A stretch of DNA of 64,000 nucleotides from Bacteroidaceae bacterium. GTDB lineage: Bacteria > Bacteroidota > Bacteroidia > Bacteroidales > Bacteroidaceae. A model generated the notes under the pieces. It was not told the DNA's origin, did no database searches, and was given only the letters and a program-made list of their open reading frames with translations. Location: positions 2,636,409 to 2,700,408 of the forward strand of contig OY776497.1 of NCBI GenBank assembly GCA_963675625.1. The letters are read 5' to 3'. The number at the start of each line of letters is the position of its first letter. Position 1 is the first letter of the stretch. Shown here piece by piece: positions 26,012 to 31,382 of the stretch. A program made the position numbers and the translations under genes.

Positions 26012-26845
26012 ATGAAGATTCAATTAGTCACGCCAGAAAAGCCAGTATCTATTCTAGATGGTGTATTTCAAGAGTACATCAAAGATAAGATTGTAGTCGA
26101 TTGTGGTCATATTATACTGGTACGTAAGGGATCTGCTACACTAAAAGTAAACTTTCGTGAAGTGCAGCAGAAAAAAGATGTTGTGGTGATTCTATTTCCT
26201 GGTGATGCGGTGATGGTAGAAAATGTCAGTCCCGATTTTGAAATAGAATATATGGTCTATACCGAATTGATTCTAAACTATGCACTGCTGGGTCTGAAAT
26301 CCTTTTCGATTGAAACATTTAAAGAGTATTATCATTCCTCATCCAAAGAAATCTCTATTCTCGCAGATAGTCTGTTCAATATAATAAATGCTTCTATTGG
26401 TTTTGGTACAGTAGACGATGCTATCAGAATCTCCGTTTATCAGTTGAGTGCTTTTTTTACCGCATATCATGCCTATTTAGTAAGCACAGGGGTTGATGTC
26501 GGACATTATTCCTCGCGGTCGAAGGAGCTATTTGCTAAGTTCATTCAATTGCTTCATGATAATTTTAAAGAGTCAAGAAACGTGGCGTATTACGCAGATG
26601 CAATGAATGTAACGCCAAGATATCTTACCAAAATAGTTACTGAGTGTACGGGTTCATCAGCCAAGAAGAATATTGATGAGTATGTCATCATGCAAATTAA
26701 ATTGGTCATATTAAATACAGACGATGCAATCAATGATATAGCATGGAGTTTTAAATTCGAGAACTTCTCTTTCTTCTGCGACTACTTTAAGCGACACACA
26801 GGATTAACTCCTAATGAATATCGAAATAAGTATTCAAGGATTTGA
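26012..26845 (+). CDS. AraC-family transcriptional regulator
   Basis: C-terminal AraC HTH (DIAWSFKFENFSFFCDYFKRHTGLTPNEYR). Divergent from the cyclophilin-like operon. Confidence 0.88.
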   Translation: MKIQLVTPEKPVSILDGVFQEYIKDKIVVDCGHIILVRKGSATLKVNFREVQQKKDVVVILFPGDAVMVENVSPDFEIEYMVYTELILNYALLGLKSFSIETFKEYYHSSSKEISILADSLFNIINASIGFGTVDDAIRISVYQLSAFFTAYHAYLVSTGVDVGHYSSRSKELFAKFIQLLHDNFKESRNVAYYADAMNVTPRYLTKIVTECTGSSAKKNIDEYVIMQIKLVILNTDDAINDIAWSFKFENFSFFCDYFKRHTGLTPNEYRNKYSRI

Positions 26846-27199: not shown

Positions 27200-28630
27200 T
27201 TATTTTCCGATACAGAAATTCTTAAAGATATTACCCAGCACTTGATCTGTGGTGACTTCACCTATGATATCATTGAGATAATAGATTGCTTCACGAATGT
27301 CCTGTGAAAGTAAATCACCAGGAATCTCCATCTCTAGTCCGTCACGTACACGATCTATTGCTTCTAATGCGTGTGTCAAAGCTTCAAAGTGACGGGCATT
27401 GGTGACAATCAGTTGATGTTCATTTAGGTTTGGAATATTGGCTTCTTCCTGAAGCATATCTAGTAGTTCTGGGATACCTTGTTGGGTCTTCGCACTGATT
27501 GTAAGCGAATGAATGGTAGAAGAATCGATCGTTTTCTCTACTTCTGCCATCAATTCATTTTTTAAGCGCATATGACTTTCATCTAGACTATCTACCTTAT
27601 TAAAGAGCATAATCGTCGATTTCTCTTGCATATGTGCAGCTAGTTTAGGGAGCAGGTGGAGCACCTTTTTGATACCTTGTTGTAAGTCAATAATCCAAAG
27701 CACAATTTGTGCTTGGTCAATTTTTTGGTAACTGCGTTGTATGCCGATTCGTTCTATAGTATCTTCTGTTTCACGAAGACCAGCTGTATCAATAAAACGA
27801 TAGGTTACTCCATTGATATTGATTGTATCTTCTACCACATCGCGTGTGGTGCCATGAATATCACTAACAATAGCTTTATCATCTTGGAGTAGGGCATTGA
27901 GTAGAGTCGATTTGCCCGCATTTGTTTGTCCAATTAAAGCTACAGGAATTCCTTGTTTGATCGCGTTACCCACTTGGAAAGAGTTCGCCAATTTCTGAAT
28001 TACAGTATGCAATTCAGAGGCCAATCCTTTTAATTCCGTACGGTCTGCAAACTCAAGTTCCTCGTGATCAGAAAAGTCCAGTTCCAATTCCACCAACGAC
28101 GTAAAGTGCAACAATTGATCACGAAGGCGACGCAATTCAGAAGAAAAACCACCGCGCATTTGATTCATAGCCAATTGATGAGTGGCTTTATTGGTCGAAG
28201 CTATTAGATCGGCTACCGCTTCGGCTTGACTGAGGTCCATTTTGCCATTCATAAATGCTCGTTGTGTGTATTCACCAGGCTGAGCCAGACGGCATCCTTG
28301 AACAATCAGCAATTGAAGCACCTGTTGCAAAATGTAACTAGAGCCATGACAAGCTATTTCGATACAGTCTTCGCCAGTGTAACTATGAGGATTCTTATAG
28401 ACAGACACCAAGACTTCATCAATGATTTCTTTTGTTTGTGGATGAATAATTTGTCCAAAATGCACGGTATATGCATCTTGTGAGGCCAAAGAGAAGGTGT
28501 GGTCACCTTTACGATTGGATGTAAAAATAGTGTCGGCAATCTTAAAAGCATCTGGTCCCGACATGCGTACTATACCGATGGCACCTCCCTGTGCAGTAGC
28601 TATGGCCGCAATTGTATCTTGATGTAACAT
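27200..28630 (-). CDS. mnmE: tRNA modification GTPase MnmE
   Basis: G1 GQTNAGKST, G3 DTAG, G4 NKVD, and the C-terminal FCIGK. Confidence 0.95.
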   Translation of the reverse strand: MLHQDTIAAIATAQGGAIGIVRMSGPDAFKIADTIFTSNRKGDHTFSLASQDAYTVHFGQIIHPQTKEIIDEVLVSVYKNPHSYTGEDCIEIACHGSSYILQQVLQLLIVQGCRLAQPGEYTQRAFMNGKMDLSQAEAVADLIASTNKATHQLAMNQMRGGFSSELRRLRDQLLHFTSLVELELDFSDHEELEFADRTELKGLASELHTVIQKLANSFQVGNAIKQGIPVALIGQTNAGKSTLLNALLQDDKAIVSDIHGTTRDVVEDTININGVTYRFIDTAGLRETEDTIERIGIQRSYQKIDQAQIVLWIIDLQQGIKKVLHLLPKLAAHMQEKSTIMLFNKVDSLDESHMRLKNELMAEVEKTIDSSTIHSLTISAKTQQGIPELLDMLQEEANIPNLNEHQLIVTNARHFEALTHALEAIDRVRDGLEMEIPGDLLSQDIREAIYYLNDIIGEVTTDQVLGNIFKNFCIGK

Positions 28631-28667
28631 ATTTGAGTCTTATTATTTAAAGCCTATATAAGGAGTA

Positions 28668-28675
28668 CAAAGATA
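28668..28675 (-). promoter_or_regulatory. Bacteroidota -7 box (TATCTTTG on coding strand)
   Basis: CAAAGATA on the + strand, 38 nt upstream of the mnmE ATG. Confidence 0.4.
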
Positions 28676-28703
28676 GTGGTTTTTTCCGTGAATACAGAAA
28701 AAG

Positions 28704-29780
28704 TTAATCACTCAATTTTATGGGTAGCAAATCAAGAATGGTGTTGATAGCATCCCAATCGGCACTCGCGTCTGGAGATGAATACGTGAAGCGTAGTGGG
28801 GTGTAGGCCCAGAAAATGGATCCACCAGTTGGGCGATTAACCGCTCCATATTGCCCATGGGCATGGGTGATGATTTCGCGACATATAGATAGCCCCAAGC
28901 CTCGTGTTGACTTCTCAATACGAGATGGCTCTGTATCGTGAAAGAGGGTATTAATATCATCTTCATCAATACCGATACCTTCATCAGCAACATAAAACAC
29001 AGCTTGATTTTTTTCCACATGAATCATGCCAATACGTATCACTCCTTTTTCGCTAAATTTTACCGCATTAGAAATGAAATTTTTAGCCACCTGTACCATG
29101 CGATCTCTATCTTCATAGTAAGCTGCCTCTTTGTATGGATGATCTATTACAACATCTATCGTTTTATTGGTTTTCTGGATTAAAGACAATGCATACACTC
29201 TCATTTCAGTGAGAAATCTGCATGTATCTACTTTATTGCGATTGGCATCCGATGAACTTTGAAGAGTTGTGAGTGTGAGCACATCGTTTATAGTATTCAA
29301 TAGTTCATGAGCTCTTTTATCCAATACCGTAGCATATTCTTTTACCATATCAGGATCTTCTTCATCGATAATAAGTTGAGAGTATCCCACAATGGCATTT
29401 AGAGGAGTACGAATTTCATTGCTCATATTGGCCACGAAATTTGATTTCATAGCATTGTTGTTTTCTATCTTTTGGCGTGCTTCTACAAGAGCAGATTGAT
29501 TGGCAAAAGAAGTAATCTCATATTTGGTGTCATGATATTTAAACATACTTTTCAGGATCATGAATTTTCCCCTGATCTTACTGCCTTCTTCCCCCTTCTT
29601 TTTGGGCATAAAAGAGGTCTTATATGGCAATTGAGCAATCGTTTGTTCGGCAATAATGGCTTTGTCACATTTCGGTTGAAGTTTTTTTCGAATATGATAA
29701 AGATGTATAGCGTACCATAGTAATACGGCCGCTATAATGATATATATAATATATGCTACTAAATCTATACTCATAATCAA
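28704..29780 (-). CDS. Membrane-anchored histidine-kinase-like protein, H-box His replaced by Asn
   Basis: One N-terminal TM. H-box reads FVANMSNEIRTPLNAIVGY (AAT at 29418-29420). N box SNAVKFS, G1 ADEGIGID and G2 GLGLS are present. Confidence 0.85.
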   Translation of the reverse strand: MIMSIDLVAYIIYIIIAAVLLWYAIHLYHIRKKLQPKCDKAIIAEQTIAQLPYKTSFMPKKKGEEGSKIRGKFMILKSMFKYHDTKYEITSFANQSALVEARQKIENNNAMKSNFVANMSNEIRTPLNAIVGYSQLIIDEEDPDMVKEYATVLDKRAHELLNTINDVLTLTTLQSSSDANRNKVDTCRFLTEMRVYALSLIQKTNKTIDVVIDHPYKEAAYYEDRDRMVQVAKNFISNAVKFSEKGVIRIGMIHVEKNQAVFYVADEGIGIDEDDINTLFHDTEPSRIEKSTRGLGLSICREIITHAHGQYGAVNRPTGGSIFWAYTPLRFTYSSPDASADWDAINTILDLLPIKLSD

Positions 29781-29783
29781 TGT

Positions 29784-31094
29784 TTATACAATGTTTTGTT
29801 TTTCAACGTTGTCCTCTCTAGGTTGTCCCATTTGAGCTATGCCATCTTCGGCAAACCATATACCATCCCATCTACTGCTTATCAATTCTGTGATATCATG
29901 GAGCAATTCCTCATCTTCTACCTCTACGTCATACATGGCTGGAAGTTGAGCCCAAAATAAAAGCTTATGCCTACATTGTTTCACTCCAATATACCCCTTC
30001 TTCTGCATAGTTATTGCTTTACAAATACTTAATCCGAGGCCTGGTCCAGGGCTAAATGGGTCTATTTTATGAAAGCGTTTAAACATATGAATCAATTCCG
30101 AATCACTATATGTGCGGTCTACCTCATTGATACAATACATGACCTCATTGTCTCCTTCAAAATAAATACCCGAGCGAATGGTACCAGCACGTGTAAATTT
30201 AATCGCATTGCTGATAAATTGTTCAATGATATATGGATACACATTTTTATCATAACGCATCATGGCAAAACAGTAGGGAAATTCAAAAGTGAAATGAATC
30301 TCTTTTGTTGGTTTGATCGCTTTTTGAAATTTATACTCCAATTGATGAAGTTGAGGAATGATATCACCATCCTCAATTTGTGGTTCCATGCGTTTATTGT
30401 CCACATTGGCAAGCATAAGGATGTCATTGATTAGCACATTTAAATGCGTACTTTTACGGAGAATGATTTCCGCATATTCTTTTTGGGTGTCTTTAGAAAG
30501 AGACTCATGTTCATCAGCAAGAAGTAAAGAAAAACCAAGGATACTATTCAGTGGCGTACGTAATTCATAGCTAATCTGTTCTAGGAAGGTCGCTTTTTCT
30601 TTATCCGCCTTTTTAGCTTCACGGATGTGATGCTGGAGTTCAAAAATATTTAAGAAAGTACCCATAAGGTATCTTTTTCCTTTGATTTCTAATACTCGAA
30701 TAAGAGGTTGGGCTTCAAAGCTCACACCATCTTTAGTGTAGATTGTGTGATTTTCATCTTTCACCTCTTCCCCGTTAATGAGTCGATCAAAACTATCTGT
30801 CCACCGTTTGGCGGTTTGCTCTCCCAAGTTGTTGATCATTTGGTAGGGATTGACACCTAGGATTTGTCCACCTATTTTATTGTAAAATAGGTATCTCCCT
30901 AGATAGCTTCGACCATCCATTCCTGTTTGGATTTCACGTAAAAACATAGGGAAGGGAAGACGATGAATGACATAGGTGTATATACTCTTGTTTTGCAATA
31001 AACGACTCAGCTTTCTCAAGCGATAGACTTGAAAAGCAACGATCATTGCGAGCAAAAGTAACATACATATTATAGCGATGTGCATTTGAATCAT
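29784..31094 (-). CDS. Membrane-anchored PAS-like histidine-kinase-like protein, H-box His replaced by Tyr, G1 box degenerate
   Basis: One N-terminal TM. H-box reads FLEQISYELRTPLNSILGF (TAT at 30567-30569). N box SNAIKFT and G2 GPGLGLS are present. There is no DxGxG (reads CINEVDRTYSDSE). Confidence 0.85.
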   Translation of the reverse strand: MIQMHIAIICMLLLLAMIVAFQVYRLRKLSRLLQNKSIYTYVIHRLPFPMFLREIQTGMDGRSYLGRYLFYNKIGGQILGVNPYQMINNLGEQTAKRWTDSFDRLINGEEVKDENHTIYTKDGVSFEAQPLIRVLEIKGKRYLMGTFLNIFELQHHIREAKKADKEKATFLEQISYELRTPLNSILGFSLLLADEHESLSKDTQKEYAEIILRKSTHLNVLINDILMLANVDNKRMEPQIEDGDIIPQLHQLEYKFQKAIKPTKEIHFTFEFPYCFAMMRYDKNVYPYIIEQFISNAIKFTRAGTIRSGIYFEGDNEVMYCINEVDRTYSDSELIHMFKRFHKIDPFSPGPGLGLSICKAITMQKKGYIGVKQCRHKLLFWAQLPAMYDVEVEDEELLHDITELISSRWDGIWFAEDGIAQMGQPREDNVEKQNIV

Positions 31095-31185: not shown

Positions 31186-31193
31186 CCAAATAT
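31186..31193 (-). promoter_or_regulatory. Bacteroidota -7 box (TATATTTG on coding strand)
   Basis: CAAATATA on the + strand, 92 nt upstream of the ATG at 31094. Confidence 0.3.
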
Positions 31194-31374
31194 ACGTATA
31201 ATCAAACAAATAGCCATCAAAACAAGGCAGCTATTATCAAAAAAGCAAAACGAATTAAACAATTGTCTTTTTTATTAATATTTATAAATACACAACCCGC
31301 GCTTCCTGCGTATAGTTTAACAGTTAAAGTCTAGATACTTTTATGGCTAGATTTGGAAACTCTACAAATTAGCC

Positions 31375-31382
31375 TTAATTTT
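31375..31382 (+). promoter_or_regulatory. Bacteroidota promoter: -7 box TAATTTTG with TTTG at 31352-31355
   Basis: TAnnTTTG plus an upstream TTTG 19 nt away. The box overlaps the ORF-track TTG start, so that start is unlikely. Confidence 0.45.

What the first reader, a model, noticed from the sequence alone, without database searches (positions are those of the whole stretch)
28704..31094. Two co-transcribed histidine-kinase paralogues that both lack the phospho-acceptor histidine (His to Tyr, His to Asn), with no response regulator nearby
HisKA kinases read S-H-E-[LI]-R-T-P-L at the phospho-acceptor site. The upstream gene reads FLEQIS-Y-ELRTPLNSILGF (TAT at 30567-30569, minus strand). The downstream gene reads FVANMS-N-EIRTPLNAIVGY (AAT at 29418-29420). 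Each codon is one nucleotide away from CAT, and the two substitutions differ.

The Tyr variant also has no recognisable G1 box (DxGxG; it reads CINEVDRTYSDSE), but it keeps the N box and G2 box. The Asn variant keeps N, G1 (ADEGIGID) and G2. Both proteins have a single N-terminal TM and no periplasmic sensor domain.

The genes are 3 nt apart. No receiver-domain gene is adjacent: mnmE lies downstream and a divergent dipeptidase lies upstream. Caulobacter DivL is an established precedent for a Tyr-substituted kinase that acts as a non-phosphorylating signalling scaffold.

Inference: this is a pseudokinase pair. One partner may be ATP-binding-competent and the other ATP-binding-defective, and the pair may signal by protein-protein contacts or non-canonical phosphotransfer.
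Basis: partly seen in the sequence, partly recalled or inferred. Interest (0 to 1): 0.7.

Follow-up and report, generated by a model that had tools for sequence, protein, structure and literature searches.

The report
Conserved pair of histidine-less sensor kinases
Two adjacent genes in a gut-type Bacteroidaceae genome encode sensor kinases that have both lost the histidine they should phosphorylate, yet selection keeps them intact; relatives suggest the two proteins first split the kinase job between them and then lost it.

Summary
HK1 (29784-31094, minus strand) and HK2 (28704-29774) are HisKA+HATPase_c proteins. Tyr176 (TAT 30567-30569) and Asn (AAT 28418-29420 region; 29418-29420) sit exactly in the phospho-acceptor column. 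HK1 also lacks the G1 ATP-binding box, while HK2 keeps N, G1 and most of G2.

This is neither sequencing error nor decay. Six independent loci, down to 67-80% identity with saturated dS, keep Tyr (TAT/TAC) and Asn (AAT/AAC). dN/dS is 0.02-0.1, gene order is conserved, and the H-box is the best-conserved segment of each protein. No receiver domain occurs in the 64 kb window or in any related locus.

HK1 belongs to a Bacteroidales kinase family with a C-terminal RWxGIW[F/Y] tail. All six members I looked up lie in tandem, usually overlapping, kinase gene pairs. Some pairs are fully canonical. A second lineage shows the same complementary decay: gene 1 has lost G1 (acceptor H, N or N) and gene 2 has lost His (K, Q or E) but keeps its ATP motifs.

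Best reading: a co-expressed, probably heteromeric pseudokinase pair that signals without His phosphorylation. The function is untested. It is a new variant of a known kind (DivL-like pseudo-histidine kinases).

The parts
29784..31094 (-). HK1: gene 1 of the pair, 436 aa. Layout is TM helix, divergent PAS-like region, DHp with Tyr in the acceptor column, CA domain without a G1 box, and a conserved C-terminal tail. The NCBI/ENA record calls a start 10 codons later, at 31064.
30990..31091 (-). HK1 N-terminal transmembrane helix (residues 2-35). Only about one residue lies outside, so there is no periplasmic sensor.
   Evidence: AF2 helix 2-35, pLDDT 90-97
30660..30989 (-). HK1 residues 36-145, a divergent PAS-like region. 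BLASTP aligns it to the PAS_4 domain of P0050. It has no Pfam PAS hit of its own and low model confidence.
30399..30659 (-). HK1 DHp domain (two helices, 144-194 and 201-232). The H-box FLEQIS-Y-ELRTPLNSILGFS is 18/20 invariant across six loci.
30567..30569 (-). TAT, Tyr176, in the phospho-acceptor column of HK1. It is TAT or TAC in all six orthologous loci.
29937..30398 (-). HK1 CA (HATPase_c-like) domain. N box, F box and G2 (GPGLGL) are kept. It scores 25.8 bits, below the Pfam cut-off.
30111..30128 (-). HK1 G1-box remnant N-E-V-D-R-T in place of x-D-T-G-x-G. The Asp and both Gly residues are replaced.
29820..29936 (-). HK1 C-terminal tail after the CA domain (strand, helix, then the 'RWDGIWF' hairpin), modelled at pLDDT above 90. 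This tail is the family signature.
28704..29774 (-). HK2: gene 2 of the pair, 356 aa from the ATG shared with orthologues (358 aa if the TTG at 29780 is used). Layout is TM helix, about 60 aa of disordered linker, DHp with Asn in the acceptor column, CA domain with intact N and G1 boxes, and a short conserved tail.
29418..29420 (-). AAT, Asn, in the phospho-acceptor column of HK2. It is AAT or AAC in all six orthologous loci.
29256..29504 (-). HK2 DHp domain. The H-box FVANMS-N-EIR[T/K]PLN[A/G]IVGYS is 17/20 invariant. The +4 Thr is Lys in 3 of 6 loci.
28797..29255 (-). HK2 CA domain (HATPase_c 68.2 bits). N box and G1 are intact, the F box is lost, and G2 reads T-R-G-L-G-L.
28971..28985 (-). 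HK2 G1 box D-E-G-I-G. The Asp and both Gly residues are invariant in both clades of gene-2 proteins.
28707..28796 (-). HK2 C-terminal tail PLRFTYSSPDASADWDAINTIL... (strand plus helix), shared with clade B gene-2 proteins (PLKFEY..[ND]W).
31187..31194 (-). TATATTTG, a match to the Bacteroidetes -7 promoter consensus TAnnTTTG about 95-100 nt upstream of the HK1 ATG. It is present in all six loci and is the likely promoter of the bicistronic operon.
   Evidence: the consensus is from my own knowledge of Bacteroides promoters
28668..28702 (-). Operon boundary. A conserved hairpin (TTTTTCTG-N6-CGGAAAAA, 28681-28702) directly follows the HK2 stop. It is followed by a conserved TATCTTTG (28668-28675) 45 nt before the mnmE ATG, so mnmE probably has its own promoter.

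Best explanation
The two genes form a bicistronic operon that encodes two membrane-anchored pseudo-histidine kinases. Selection maintains both, and they most probably act together as one complex.

They are the most degenerate known members of a Bacteroidales family of tandem, translationally coupled kinase gene pairs. Gene 1 of each pair carries a C-terminal RWxGIW[F/Y] tail.

Inferred history: a canonical pair first divided the labour. Gene 1 lost its ATP-binding G1 box but kept the acceptor His. Gene 2 lost its His but kept the ATP pocket. That intermediate state is still seen in locus L018. In the window's lineage, gene 1 then replaced His by Tyr.

Inferred mechanism: HK1 and HK2 associate through their DHp helices or their tails. 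Neither can autophosphorylate on His. The strongly conserved H-box surfaces serve as docking sites for an unlinked response regulator or another kinase. HK2's retained nucleotide pocket and HK1's PAS-like region act as allosteric inputs.

Shown here: domain identity, the column assignment, conservation, selection, synteny, motif states and the absence of a linked receiver. Inferred: heteromer formation, loss of ATP binding by HK1, and phosphorylation-independent output.
For: - Domain and column assignment.
- Tyr and Asn are kept with synonymous codon variation in six loci. dN/dS is 0.014-0.098 for both genes with dS mostly saturated, against 0.009-0.047 for mnmE.
- The H-box is the most conserved segment of both proteins, 18/20 and 17/20 invariant. 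The HK1 CA domain is 75% invariant despite its dead G1 box.
- The gene order Peptidase_C69 / HK1-HK2 / mnmE is conserved. A TAnnTTTG motif lies upstream of HK1 and another before mnmE, with none between HK1 and HK2.
- A profile search of 1.84 billion representative proteins (HMMER's standard filters) found full-length relatives that share the tail.
- All six family members I looked up lie in tandem kinase pairs with 4-8 nt overlaps or short gaps.
- Clade B repeats the pattern. Gene 1 has lost G1 (acceptor N, N or H). Gene 2 has acceptor K, Q or E and no HisKA hit, but its N box, G1 Asp/Gly and G2 GLGL core are invariant.
- Pfam scores are complementary. HATPase_c scores 24-28 bits in gene 1 and 68-71 bits in gene 2.
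- No receiver domain occurs in the window or in any pair locus, with a working positive control.
- Precedents: DivL (PMC4211667), PsmA (PMC12963549) and RetS-GacS heterodimers (PMC12189002).
Against: - There is no direct evidence that HK1 and HK2 interact. Too few sequences exist for co-variation analysis.
- Tree support for a single origin of the degenerate pairs is weak. Clades 1A and 1B are sisters in 57.5% of bootstraps, and 2A+2B+L021 gene 2 group in 49.5%. The decay could therefore be convergent.
- Loss of ATP binding by HK1 is inferred from motifs only. Glu324 might partly replace the G1 Asp.
- HK2's lost F box and imperfect G2 could also impair nucleotide binding.
- The partner regulator or kinase is unknown, because only 64 kb of the genome could be read.
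- The PAS-like assignment is weak, with no Pfam hit and pLDDT below 50.
Confidence: 0.5

Rival explanations
1. Split kinase with a non-canonical acceptor. HK2's intact CA domain binds ATP and phosphorylates HK1 in trans within a heterodimer, on Tyr176. The L018-type ancestor would have done the same on His. The output would be a phospho-Tyr signal or onward transfer.
For: - Motif loss is complementary between the two genes.
- In locus L018, gene 1 has His but no G1 box, and gene 2 has G1 but no His. That pair can only be an active kinase if phosphorylation is in trans.
- Tyr is strictly conserved with synonymous codon changes.
- The E+1, R+3 and T+4 residues around Tyr are invariant.
Against: - Sister lineages of clade B have Asn at the gene-1 acceptor position, and Asn cannot accept phosphate.
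- DivL, the only well-studied Tyr variant, shows no autokinase activity in vitro (PMC4211667).
- A histidine-kinase CA domain is not known to make a stable phospho-Tyr in vivo (my own knowledge).
- HK2's F box and first G2 glycine are lost.
Confidence: 0.12
2. Dedicated response-regulator phosphatases. One or both proteins keep the HisKA phosphatase motif and only dephosphorylate an unlinked response regulator, acting as kinase-negative, phosphatase-positive sinks.
For: - HK1 keeps E at +1 and T at +4 (Y-E-L-R-T-P) in all six loci, and the H-box is the most conserved segment.
- Some His substitutions in HisKA kinases, such as NtrB H139N and EnvZ H243V, are reported to retain phosphatase activity. 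This is from my own memory and I did not verify it here (searches returned nothing usable).
Against: - In HK853 the acceptor His takes part in the phosphatase reaction, and H260A has diminished activity (PMC5727384).
- HK2 has Lys instead of Thr at +4 in 3 of 6 loci.
- Clade B gene 2 has lost the whole motif.
- DivL, with Tyr at this position, lacks phosphatase activity (PMC4211667).
Confidence: 0.15
3. Two independent pseudokinases. Each forms homodimers and has its own separate, non-catalytic job, and adjacency only reflects an old tandem duplication.
For: - The two proteins are only 29% identical.
- Kinase paralogues usually evolve to avoid heterodimers (my own knowledge).
- Their tails and N-terminal regions differ.
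Against: - The pairing, gene order and overlapping or near-overlapping reading frames are kept in every lineage examined, across different genomic contexts.
- The motif losses are complementary rather than random, and they recur in two lineages.
Confidence: 0.18
4. Sequencing error, strain-specific mutation or decaying pseudogenes.
For: Each acceptor codon is one nucleotide away from CAT.
Against: - Six independent assemblies carry the same residues with both synonymous codons.
- All reading frames are intact, and dN/dS is at most 0.1.
- A further metagenome contig is 99% identical.
Confidence: 0.01

Closest known systems
DivL of Caulobacter crescentus (pseudo-histidine kinase with Tyr550 in place of His)
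   Same: HK1 has a HisKA-type DHp with Tyr in the acceptor column. The residues around it are highly conserved and form the response-regulator docking surface in DivL. HK1 has a PAS-type region N-terminal to the DHp and is maintained by selection. The HK1 model matches the DivL structure 4q20 (E 1.4e-13).
   Different: DivL keeps the N, G1, F and G2 boxes (PMC4211667), whereas HK1 has lost G1. DivL is a single alphaproteobacterial protein of 769 residues (constructs numbered to 769) with multiple PAS domains (PMC4211667). HK1 is 436 aa, from Bacteroidaceae, and always paired with a second His-less kinase. HK1 is no closer in sequence to DivL (E 7e-13) than to ordinary kinases such as SrrB (1.5e-18). 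It is an analogue, not a family member.
RetS-GacS and related kinase-kinase heteromers in Pseudomonas
   Same: One kinase-fold protein modulates another through DHp contacts rather than through its own phosphorelay (PMC12189002). Both window proteins hit RetS kinase-region structures.
   Different: RetS and GacS are unlinked hybrid kinases, and GacS has a working His (PMC12189002). Here the partners are co-transcribed, small, and both lack His. No interaction was tested here.
PsmA of Streptomyces (hybrid pseudo-histidine kinase of the polarisome)
   Same: It is a conserved kinase-like protein without the H-box His, shown to lack autokinase activity, with PAS domains required for function (PMC12963549).
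   Different: In PsmA the acceptor position is variable (E, D, Q, V, Y) and the E/DxxT/N motif is gone. In the window's clade the substituted residues and the rest of the H-box are strictly conserved. PsmA is a single hybrid protein, not a pair.
Plant ethylene receptor subfamilies (ETR1/ERS1 with kinase motifs; ETR2/ERS2/EIN4 degenerate)
   Same: Kinase-fold receptors with canonical and degenerate members work in mixed complexes (my own knowledge, not checked here). HK2 weakly matches the ERS1 DHp structure 4mt8.
   Different: These are eukaryotic, with a different sensor domain and different evolutionary origin, and they are not organised as an operon.
Canonical tandem pairs of the same Bacteroidales family (loci L020, L022)
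   Same: They share the same gene order, overlapping reading frames, the RWxGIW[F/Y] tail on gene 1, the PAS-like region, and the absence of a linked response regulator.
   Different: In those pairs both proteins keep His and the DxGxG box. Several members carry a periplasmic SBP_bac_3 sensor domain that the window's proteins lack.

Membership tests
HisKA-family (class I) sensor histidine kinase | DHp domain matching Pfam HisKA (PF00512) | tested here: met
   HK1 scores 52.6 bits and HK2 55.7 bits against a 26.9 cut-off.
HisKA-family (class I) sensor histidine kinase | Phospho-acceptor His in the H-box | tested here: not met
   HK1 has Tyr176 and HK2 has Asn, both aligned under the His of SrrB, VicK, GacS and HK853. 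The column is at least 90% His in about 100 homologues. No alternative His lies in DHp helix 1.
HisKA-family (class I) sensor histidine kinase | GHKL ATP-binding domain with N, G1, F and G2 boxes | tested here: inconclusive
   HK2 scores 68.2 bits for HATPase_c, with N and G1 intact, the F box lost and the first G2 Gly replaced. HK1 scores 25.8 bits (cut-off 26.4), with N, F and G2 present and G1 absent. Nucleotide binding itself cannot be tested here.
HisKA-family (class I) sensor histidine kinase | Cognate response regulator | tested here: not met
   No receiver domain occurs in the 64 kb window or in any related pair locus, using an HMM with a positive control. An unlinked partner elsewhere in the genome cannot be excluded.
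DivL-type pseudokinase | His replaced by Tyr in an otherwise complete kinase core (all boxes retained) | tested here: not met
   Tyr is present in HK1 but G1 is lost. DivL retains the H, N, G1, F and G2 boxes (PMC4211667).
DivL-type pseudokinase | Orthology to alphaproteobacterial DivL (multi-PAS architecture, closest sequence relatives) | tested here: not met
   DivL 4q20 ranks twelfth among PDB sequence hits. The nearest relatives are Bacteroidales kinases with the RWxGIW tail.
DivL-type pseudokinase | Binds a phosphorylated response regulator and controls another kinase without catalysis | not testable with these tools
   This needs binding assays.
   HK1 has 'RWDGIWF' 29 residues from its end. 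Fourteen of the 418 fetched proteins match a strict motif pattern.
   This holds for the window and for L001-L005 and for L013/L017/L018, L016, L020, L021 and L022.

The most novel reading that the evidence does not exclude
The family is a natural 'split' histidine kinase. It would be an obligate heterodimer in which one subunit supplies only the ATP-binding catalytic domain and the other only the phospho-acceptor helix. That state is preserved in locus L018.

The window's lineage would then have gone one step further, in one of two ways. It could be an HK-fold enzyme that phosphorylates a conserved Tyr in trans. Or it could be an ATP-gated, phosphorylation-free membrane switch. Either way the series would record, step by step, how a two-component kinase turns into a pseudokinase complex.
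Probability: 0.2. Interest if true: 0.8.

Novelty: new variant of a known kind. Interest (0 to 1): 0.62.

Why it matters
Few pseudo-histidine kinases have been characterised (I found DivL and PsmA), each as a single protein. This case is a co-transcribed pair in which the phospho-acceptor and ATP-binding functions decayed on different partners. Living relatives represent the canonical, half-degenerate and fully His-less states.

If the pair is a heteromer, it would be a natural counterpart of the classic trans-complementation experiments between His-minus and ATP-minus kinase mutants. It would also show how kinase paralogues can become mutually dependent instead of insulated from each other.

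It also flags a practical problem. Proteins like these may be counted as ordinary sensor kinases on the strength of their domain hits, as one relative's NCBI name suggests, which would inflate kinase counts and mislead network reconstructions for gut Bacteroidales.

The proteins are small and the acceptor-site mutations are obvious ones to make, so the hypotheses are cheap to test.

Tried and rejected
- Sequencing error or decay: rejected by six assemblies, synonymous codon variation and dN/dS of at most 0.1.
- Alternative acceptor His: none lies in DHp helix 1. His217 in HK1 helix 2 appears, from my recollection of the HK853 sequence, to match a non-acceptor His there, and His196 lies in the hairpin loop.
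- Recent duplication: rejected, because HK1 and HK2 are 29% identical, no closer than to unrelated kinases.
- Linked response regulator: none in the window or in 20 related loci.
- Plasmid or mobile origin: no match in the plasmid collection.
- RNA elements: no Rfam hit in the window. The sigma-70 promoter scan was no better than shuffles and does not apply to Bacteroidetes.
- PAS assignment for HK1 residues 36-145: no Pfam hit even when the region was searched alone. Only a BLASTP alignment to a PAS_4 domain supports it, and AF2 confidence is low.
- Organism and habitat: the look-up of encoding contigs had no record for P0001, and searching papers for the sample accessions found nothing. The only names available are 'MAG: Bacteroidaceae bacterium' for L002 and L003.
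- Metagenome scan: it added only one 99% identical locus.
- P0250 looked like a close HK2 relative but is an assembly-duplicated ordinary kinase whose score is inflated.
- The first tree script timed out, and the second had invalid distances. One search is the valid run, and its support for deep nodes is weak.
- Literature searches for tandem or heterodimeric kinase pairs in Bacteroidetes found nothing relevant.
- I could not verify the remembered NtrB H139N and EnvZ H243V phosphatase-positive results in the library.
Full report
**1.

The region contains two minus-strand ORFs. HK1 spans 29784-31094 (436 aa). HK2 spans 28704-29780 (358 aa from a TTG start). All orthologues of HK2 begin at the ATG equivalent to 29774 (MS[IL][DE]...), so 356 aa is the likelier product.

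Pfam finds HisKA and HATPase_c in both proteins. HK1 scores 52.6 and 25.8 bits, the latter just under the 26.4 cut-off. HK2 scores 55.7 and 68.2 bits. NCBIfam gives only sub-threshold matches to many kinase equivalogs, so neither protein belongs to a named system.

Residue-by-residue alignments to solved kinases confirm the column assignment.
- HK1 Tyr176 lies under the His of SrrB and VicK.
- The HK2 Asn lies under the His of GacS and HK853.
- The codons are TAT 30567-30569 and AAT 29418-29420.

In alignments with roughly 100 homologues each, the acceptor column is at least 90% His. The G1 positions D, T, G and G are at least 90% conserved. HK1 reads E-V-D-R-T at G1, while HK2 keeps D-E-G-I-G. 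HK2 has lost the F box, and its G2 reads T-R-G-L-G-L.

By regex, 225 of the 229 non-orthologous homologues have a single His in the acceptor column. Three of the other four also read SH at the H-box on inspection; only P0129 lacks His. Two adjacent His-less kinases are therefore far from a chance expectation.

**2. It is neither error nor decay**

The word-index protein search found four orthologue clusters for each protein, at 100/79-81% identity for HK1 and 99/67-73% for HK2. After that, identity falls abruptly to about 30-40%. The contigs that encode these clusters, plus two GTDB species representatives, give six independent loci including the window. The two representatives are 'MAG: Bacteroidaceae bacterium' OY764867 and OY787448, both about 2.8-2.9 Mb chromosomes.

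All six loci show the following.
- The order is Peptidase_C69 (divergent), HK1, HK2, mnmE.
- Both reading frames are intact.
- HK1 has Tyr, encoded by TAT or TAC.
- HK2 has Asn, encoded by AAT or AAC.

Between the deep lineages dS is saturated. Where it can be estimated, dN/dS is 0.014-0.093 for HK1 and 0.054-0.098 for HK2. The neighbouring mnmE gives 0.009-0.047.

The H-box is the most conserved segment of each protein, with 18/20 and 17/20 invariant positions. The HK1 CA domain is 75% invariant even without a G1 box. These proteins are functional, and the surface around the former acceptor site is what selection guards most.

**3. Operon structure and context**

A match to the Bacteroidetes -7 promoter consensus TAnnTTTG lies about 95-100 nt upstream of HK1 in all six loci. 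Another lies 44-46 nt upstream of mnmE. None lies between HK1 and HK2, which are 3-21 nt apart. The consensus itself comes from my own knowledge.

A conserved hairpin directly follows the HK2 stop codon. The pair is therefore most likely its own bicistronic unit.

I built a receiver-domain HMM from 40 sequences. It detects an OmpR control it was not trained on at E=8.6e-28. It finds no receiver in the 64 kb window or in any locus that carries a pair of this family. The window holds no other kinase.

**4. Architecture**

The AlphaFold models give the following layouts.

HK1 (mean pLDDT 79.6):
- a TM helix (residues 2-35);
- a poorly predicted region (36-144);
- a two-helix DHp;
- a CA domain;
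- a confidently modelled C-terminal extension (strand, helix and a small hairpin, pLDDT above 90).

HK2 (mean pLDDT 74.0):
- a TM helix (3-32);
- a disordered linker (32-90);
- DHp and CA domains;
- a shorter strand-plus-helix tail.

BLASTP aligns HK1 residues 25-150 to the PAS_4 domain of P0050. HK1 has no Pfam PAS hit of its own, so I call this region PAS-like only. The HK1 model matches HK853, WalK, DivL, CusS and RetS kinase cores at E of 1e-10 to 1e-15.

The two proteins are 29% identical to each other, no more than to unrelated kinases. They are old relatives, not recent duplicates.

**5. The wider family, the main new result**

I searched 1.84 billion cluster representatives with the HK1 orthologue profile. 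The search returned proteins that match HK1 from the TM helix to the tail. They share a C-terminal RWxGIW[F/Y] motif.

Nine representatives keep His and a canonical DxGxG box: P0239, P0240, P0243, P0246, P0254, P0256, P0262, P0273 and P0339. Some of the long (~690 aa) members, such as P0240 and P0243, carry a periplasmic SBP_bac_3 domain.

Every family member whose contig I could read sits immediately upstream of a second kinase-fold gene, usually with overlapping reading frames.

| Locus | Gene 1 | Gene 2 |
|---|---|---|
| L020 | P0262, His | 454 aa, His, canonical |
| L022 | P0243, His | SBP-type, His |
| L021 | P0339, His | 664 aa, Glu in the acceptor column, G1 intact |
| L016 | P0239, His | TM plus PAS-like ORF, cut by the contig end |
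| Clade B: L013, L017, L018 | about 433 aa | 353 aa, 4-nt overlap |

Clade B lies in a different neighbourhood from the window's pair, between a PIF1-type helicase and oadB.

- **Clade B gene 1:** the G1 box is destroyed in all members (NSF[F/D]KP). The acceptor residue is Asn in P0238 and P0383 but still His in P0384, which reads NISHEIRTPL.
- **Clade B gene 2:** the acceptor column holds Lys, Gln or Glu, and the H-box no longer scores as HisKA. Yet the N-box Asn residues, the G1 Asp and both glycines, and the GLGL core of G2 are invariant. HATPase_c scores 69-71 bits.

The motif table shows the same complementary pattern in the window's clade A. Gene 1 keeps a canonical-looking H-box but has a dead G1 box. 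Gene 2 keeps G1 but lacks His.

A neighbour-joining tree on 218 core columns puts clades A and B of gene 1 together in 57.5% of bootstraps. It groups the gene-2 proteins of A, B and L021 in 49.5%. Common descent of the degenerate pairs is plausible but not established. If they are independent, the pattern arose twice.

**6. Interpretation**

The series is most simply explained if the two proteins of each pair work as one unit. The series runs from both canonical, to gene 2 His-less, to gene 1 G1-less with gene 2 His-less, to both His-less. In such a unit one acceptor site and one ATP site suffice, so redundancy decays on different partners.

The L018 state can only be an active kinase if gene 2's CA domain phosphorylates gene 1's His in trans.

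In the window's clade no His remains. The pair can no longer run a canonical phosphotransfer. I consider a phosphorylation-independent complex the most likely reading (confidence 0.5). In this reading the conserved H-box surfaces dock a regulator or another kinase, and the HK2 nucleotide pocket and HK1 PAS-like region act as inputs. DivL is the precedent. It keeps the docking surface, binds DivK~P, and lacks kinase and phosphatase activity (PMC4211667).

The rivals are as follows.
- **Trans-phosphorylation of Tyr176 by HK2 (0.12).** It is attractive because Tyr is strictly kept. It is weakened by the Asn variants in clade B and by DivL's lack of activity.
- **Dedicated phosphatases (0.15).** HK1 keeps E+1 and T+4. 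However, the His takes part in the phosphatase reaction of HK853 (PMC5727384), and HK2 has Lys at +4 in half the loci.
- **Two unrelated homodimeric pseudokinases (0.18).**
- **Error or decay (0.01).**

**7. Comparison with known systems and novelty**

The proteins have the HisKA-family kinase fold but fail its defining catalytic feature. HK1 works like DivL in having Tyr and a conserved docking surface. It is not a DivL family member, because G1 is lost, the architecture and phylum differ, and it has no special sequence affinity for DivL.

PsmA of Streptomyces is another conserved pseudo-histidine kinase. Its acceptor position drifts and its phosphatase motif is gone (PMC12963549). RetS-GacS shows that kinase-fold proteins can regulate one another through DHp contacts (PMC12189002).

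I found no paper describing tandem kinase pairs of this type in Bacteroidetes, or a natural pair with complementary motif loss.

I rate the finding a new variant of a known kind, with interest 0.62. It is clean, conserved and cheap to test, and the evolutionary series is unusual. The function is unknown, and the distribution of the fully His-less form is narrow: one small Bacteroidaceae clade, plus part of clade B.

Noticed in passing
window 29820-29936 (HK1 residues 387-425); also P0238-P0240, P0243, P0246, P0254, P0262, P0339: A conserved C-terminal extension follows the CA domain. It consists of a strand, a helix and an 'RWxGIW[F/Y]' hairpin. It has no Pfam or NCBIfam match, is modelled at pLDDT above 90, and marks a whole Bacteroidales kinase subfamily. 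Its role is unknown; it could be a partner contact or lie close to the membrane.
   Followed up: partly
window 28681-28702, minus strand: A hairpin TTTTTCTG-N6-C[A/G]GAAAAA lies directly after the HK2 stop codon and is conserved in all six loci, with a U-G wobble in the window. No T-run follows it, so it is not a classic intrinsic terminator. It could be an mRNA 3' end, a stability element, or part of the mnmE promoter region.
   Followed up: partly
window about 31347-31372 (between HK1 and the divergent Peptidase_C69 gene): A nearly invariant 26-nt element CTAATTTGTAGAGTTTCCAAAT[C/T]TAG is present in all loci. Its reverse strand contains TA[GA]ATTTG, which fits the Bacteroidetes -7 consensus for the peptidase gene. 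The listed TTG start at 31381 is probably too far upstream. Orthologues are 552 aa, which fits the ATG at about 31474.
   Followed up: partly
L008:941-2542 (protein P0129, ENA ERZ28564700): An unrelated 533-aa kinase with an otherwise perfect H-box reads NMS-N-EIRTPL. It is an independent His-to-Asn variant with intact G1 and G2 boxes. It is a singleton cluster on a 3.3 kb contig, so either a real variant or an error is possible.
   Followed up: partly
L021:9367-11361: The gene-2 partner of P0339 has an SBP-like periplasmic domain, a TM helix and a PAS-like region. It has Glu in the acceptor column and a degenerate G2 (TTMGFGIA), while its gene-1 partner is fully canonical. This looks like another independent stage of one-sided decay in the family.
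   Followed up: partly
protein P0250 (438 aa): This library representative contains the same roughly 190-residue kinase segment twice. It is probably an assembly artefact, and it inflates its scores against any kinase query.
   Followed up: yes
window 26012-26845 (+) against L001, L003 and L005 downstream of mnmE: Downstream of mnmE, the window and L002 carry a 277-aa ORF whose C-terminal sequence looks like an AraC-type HTH regulator (by eye; it was not scanned). The other lineages carry a 183-aa nitroreductase instead. Synteny therefore ends at mnmE.
   Followed up: no
window 31064 against 31094: The public record for the identical protein (P0001, 426 aa) starts at the internal Met11. The orthologues support the upstream ATG (MIQ[VM]HI...). 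With the shorter start, the TM helix would be truncated.
   Followed up: partly
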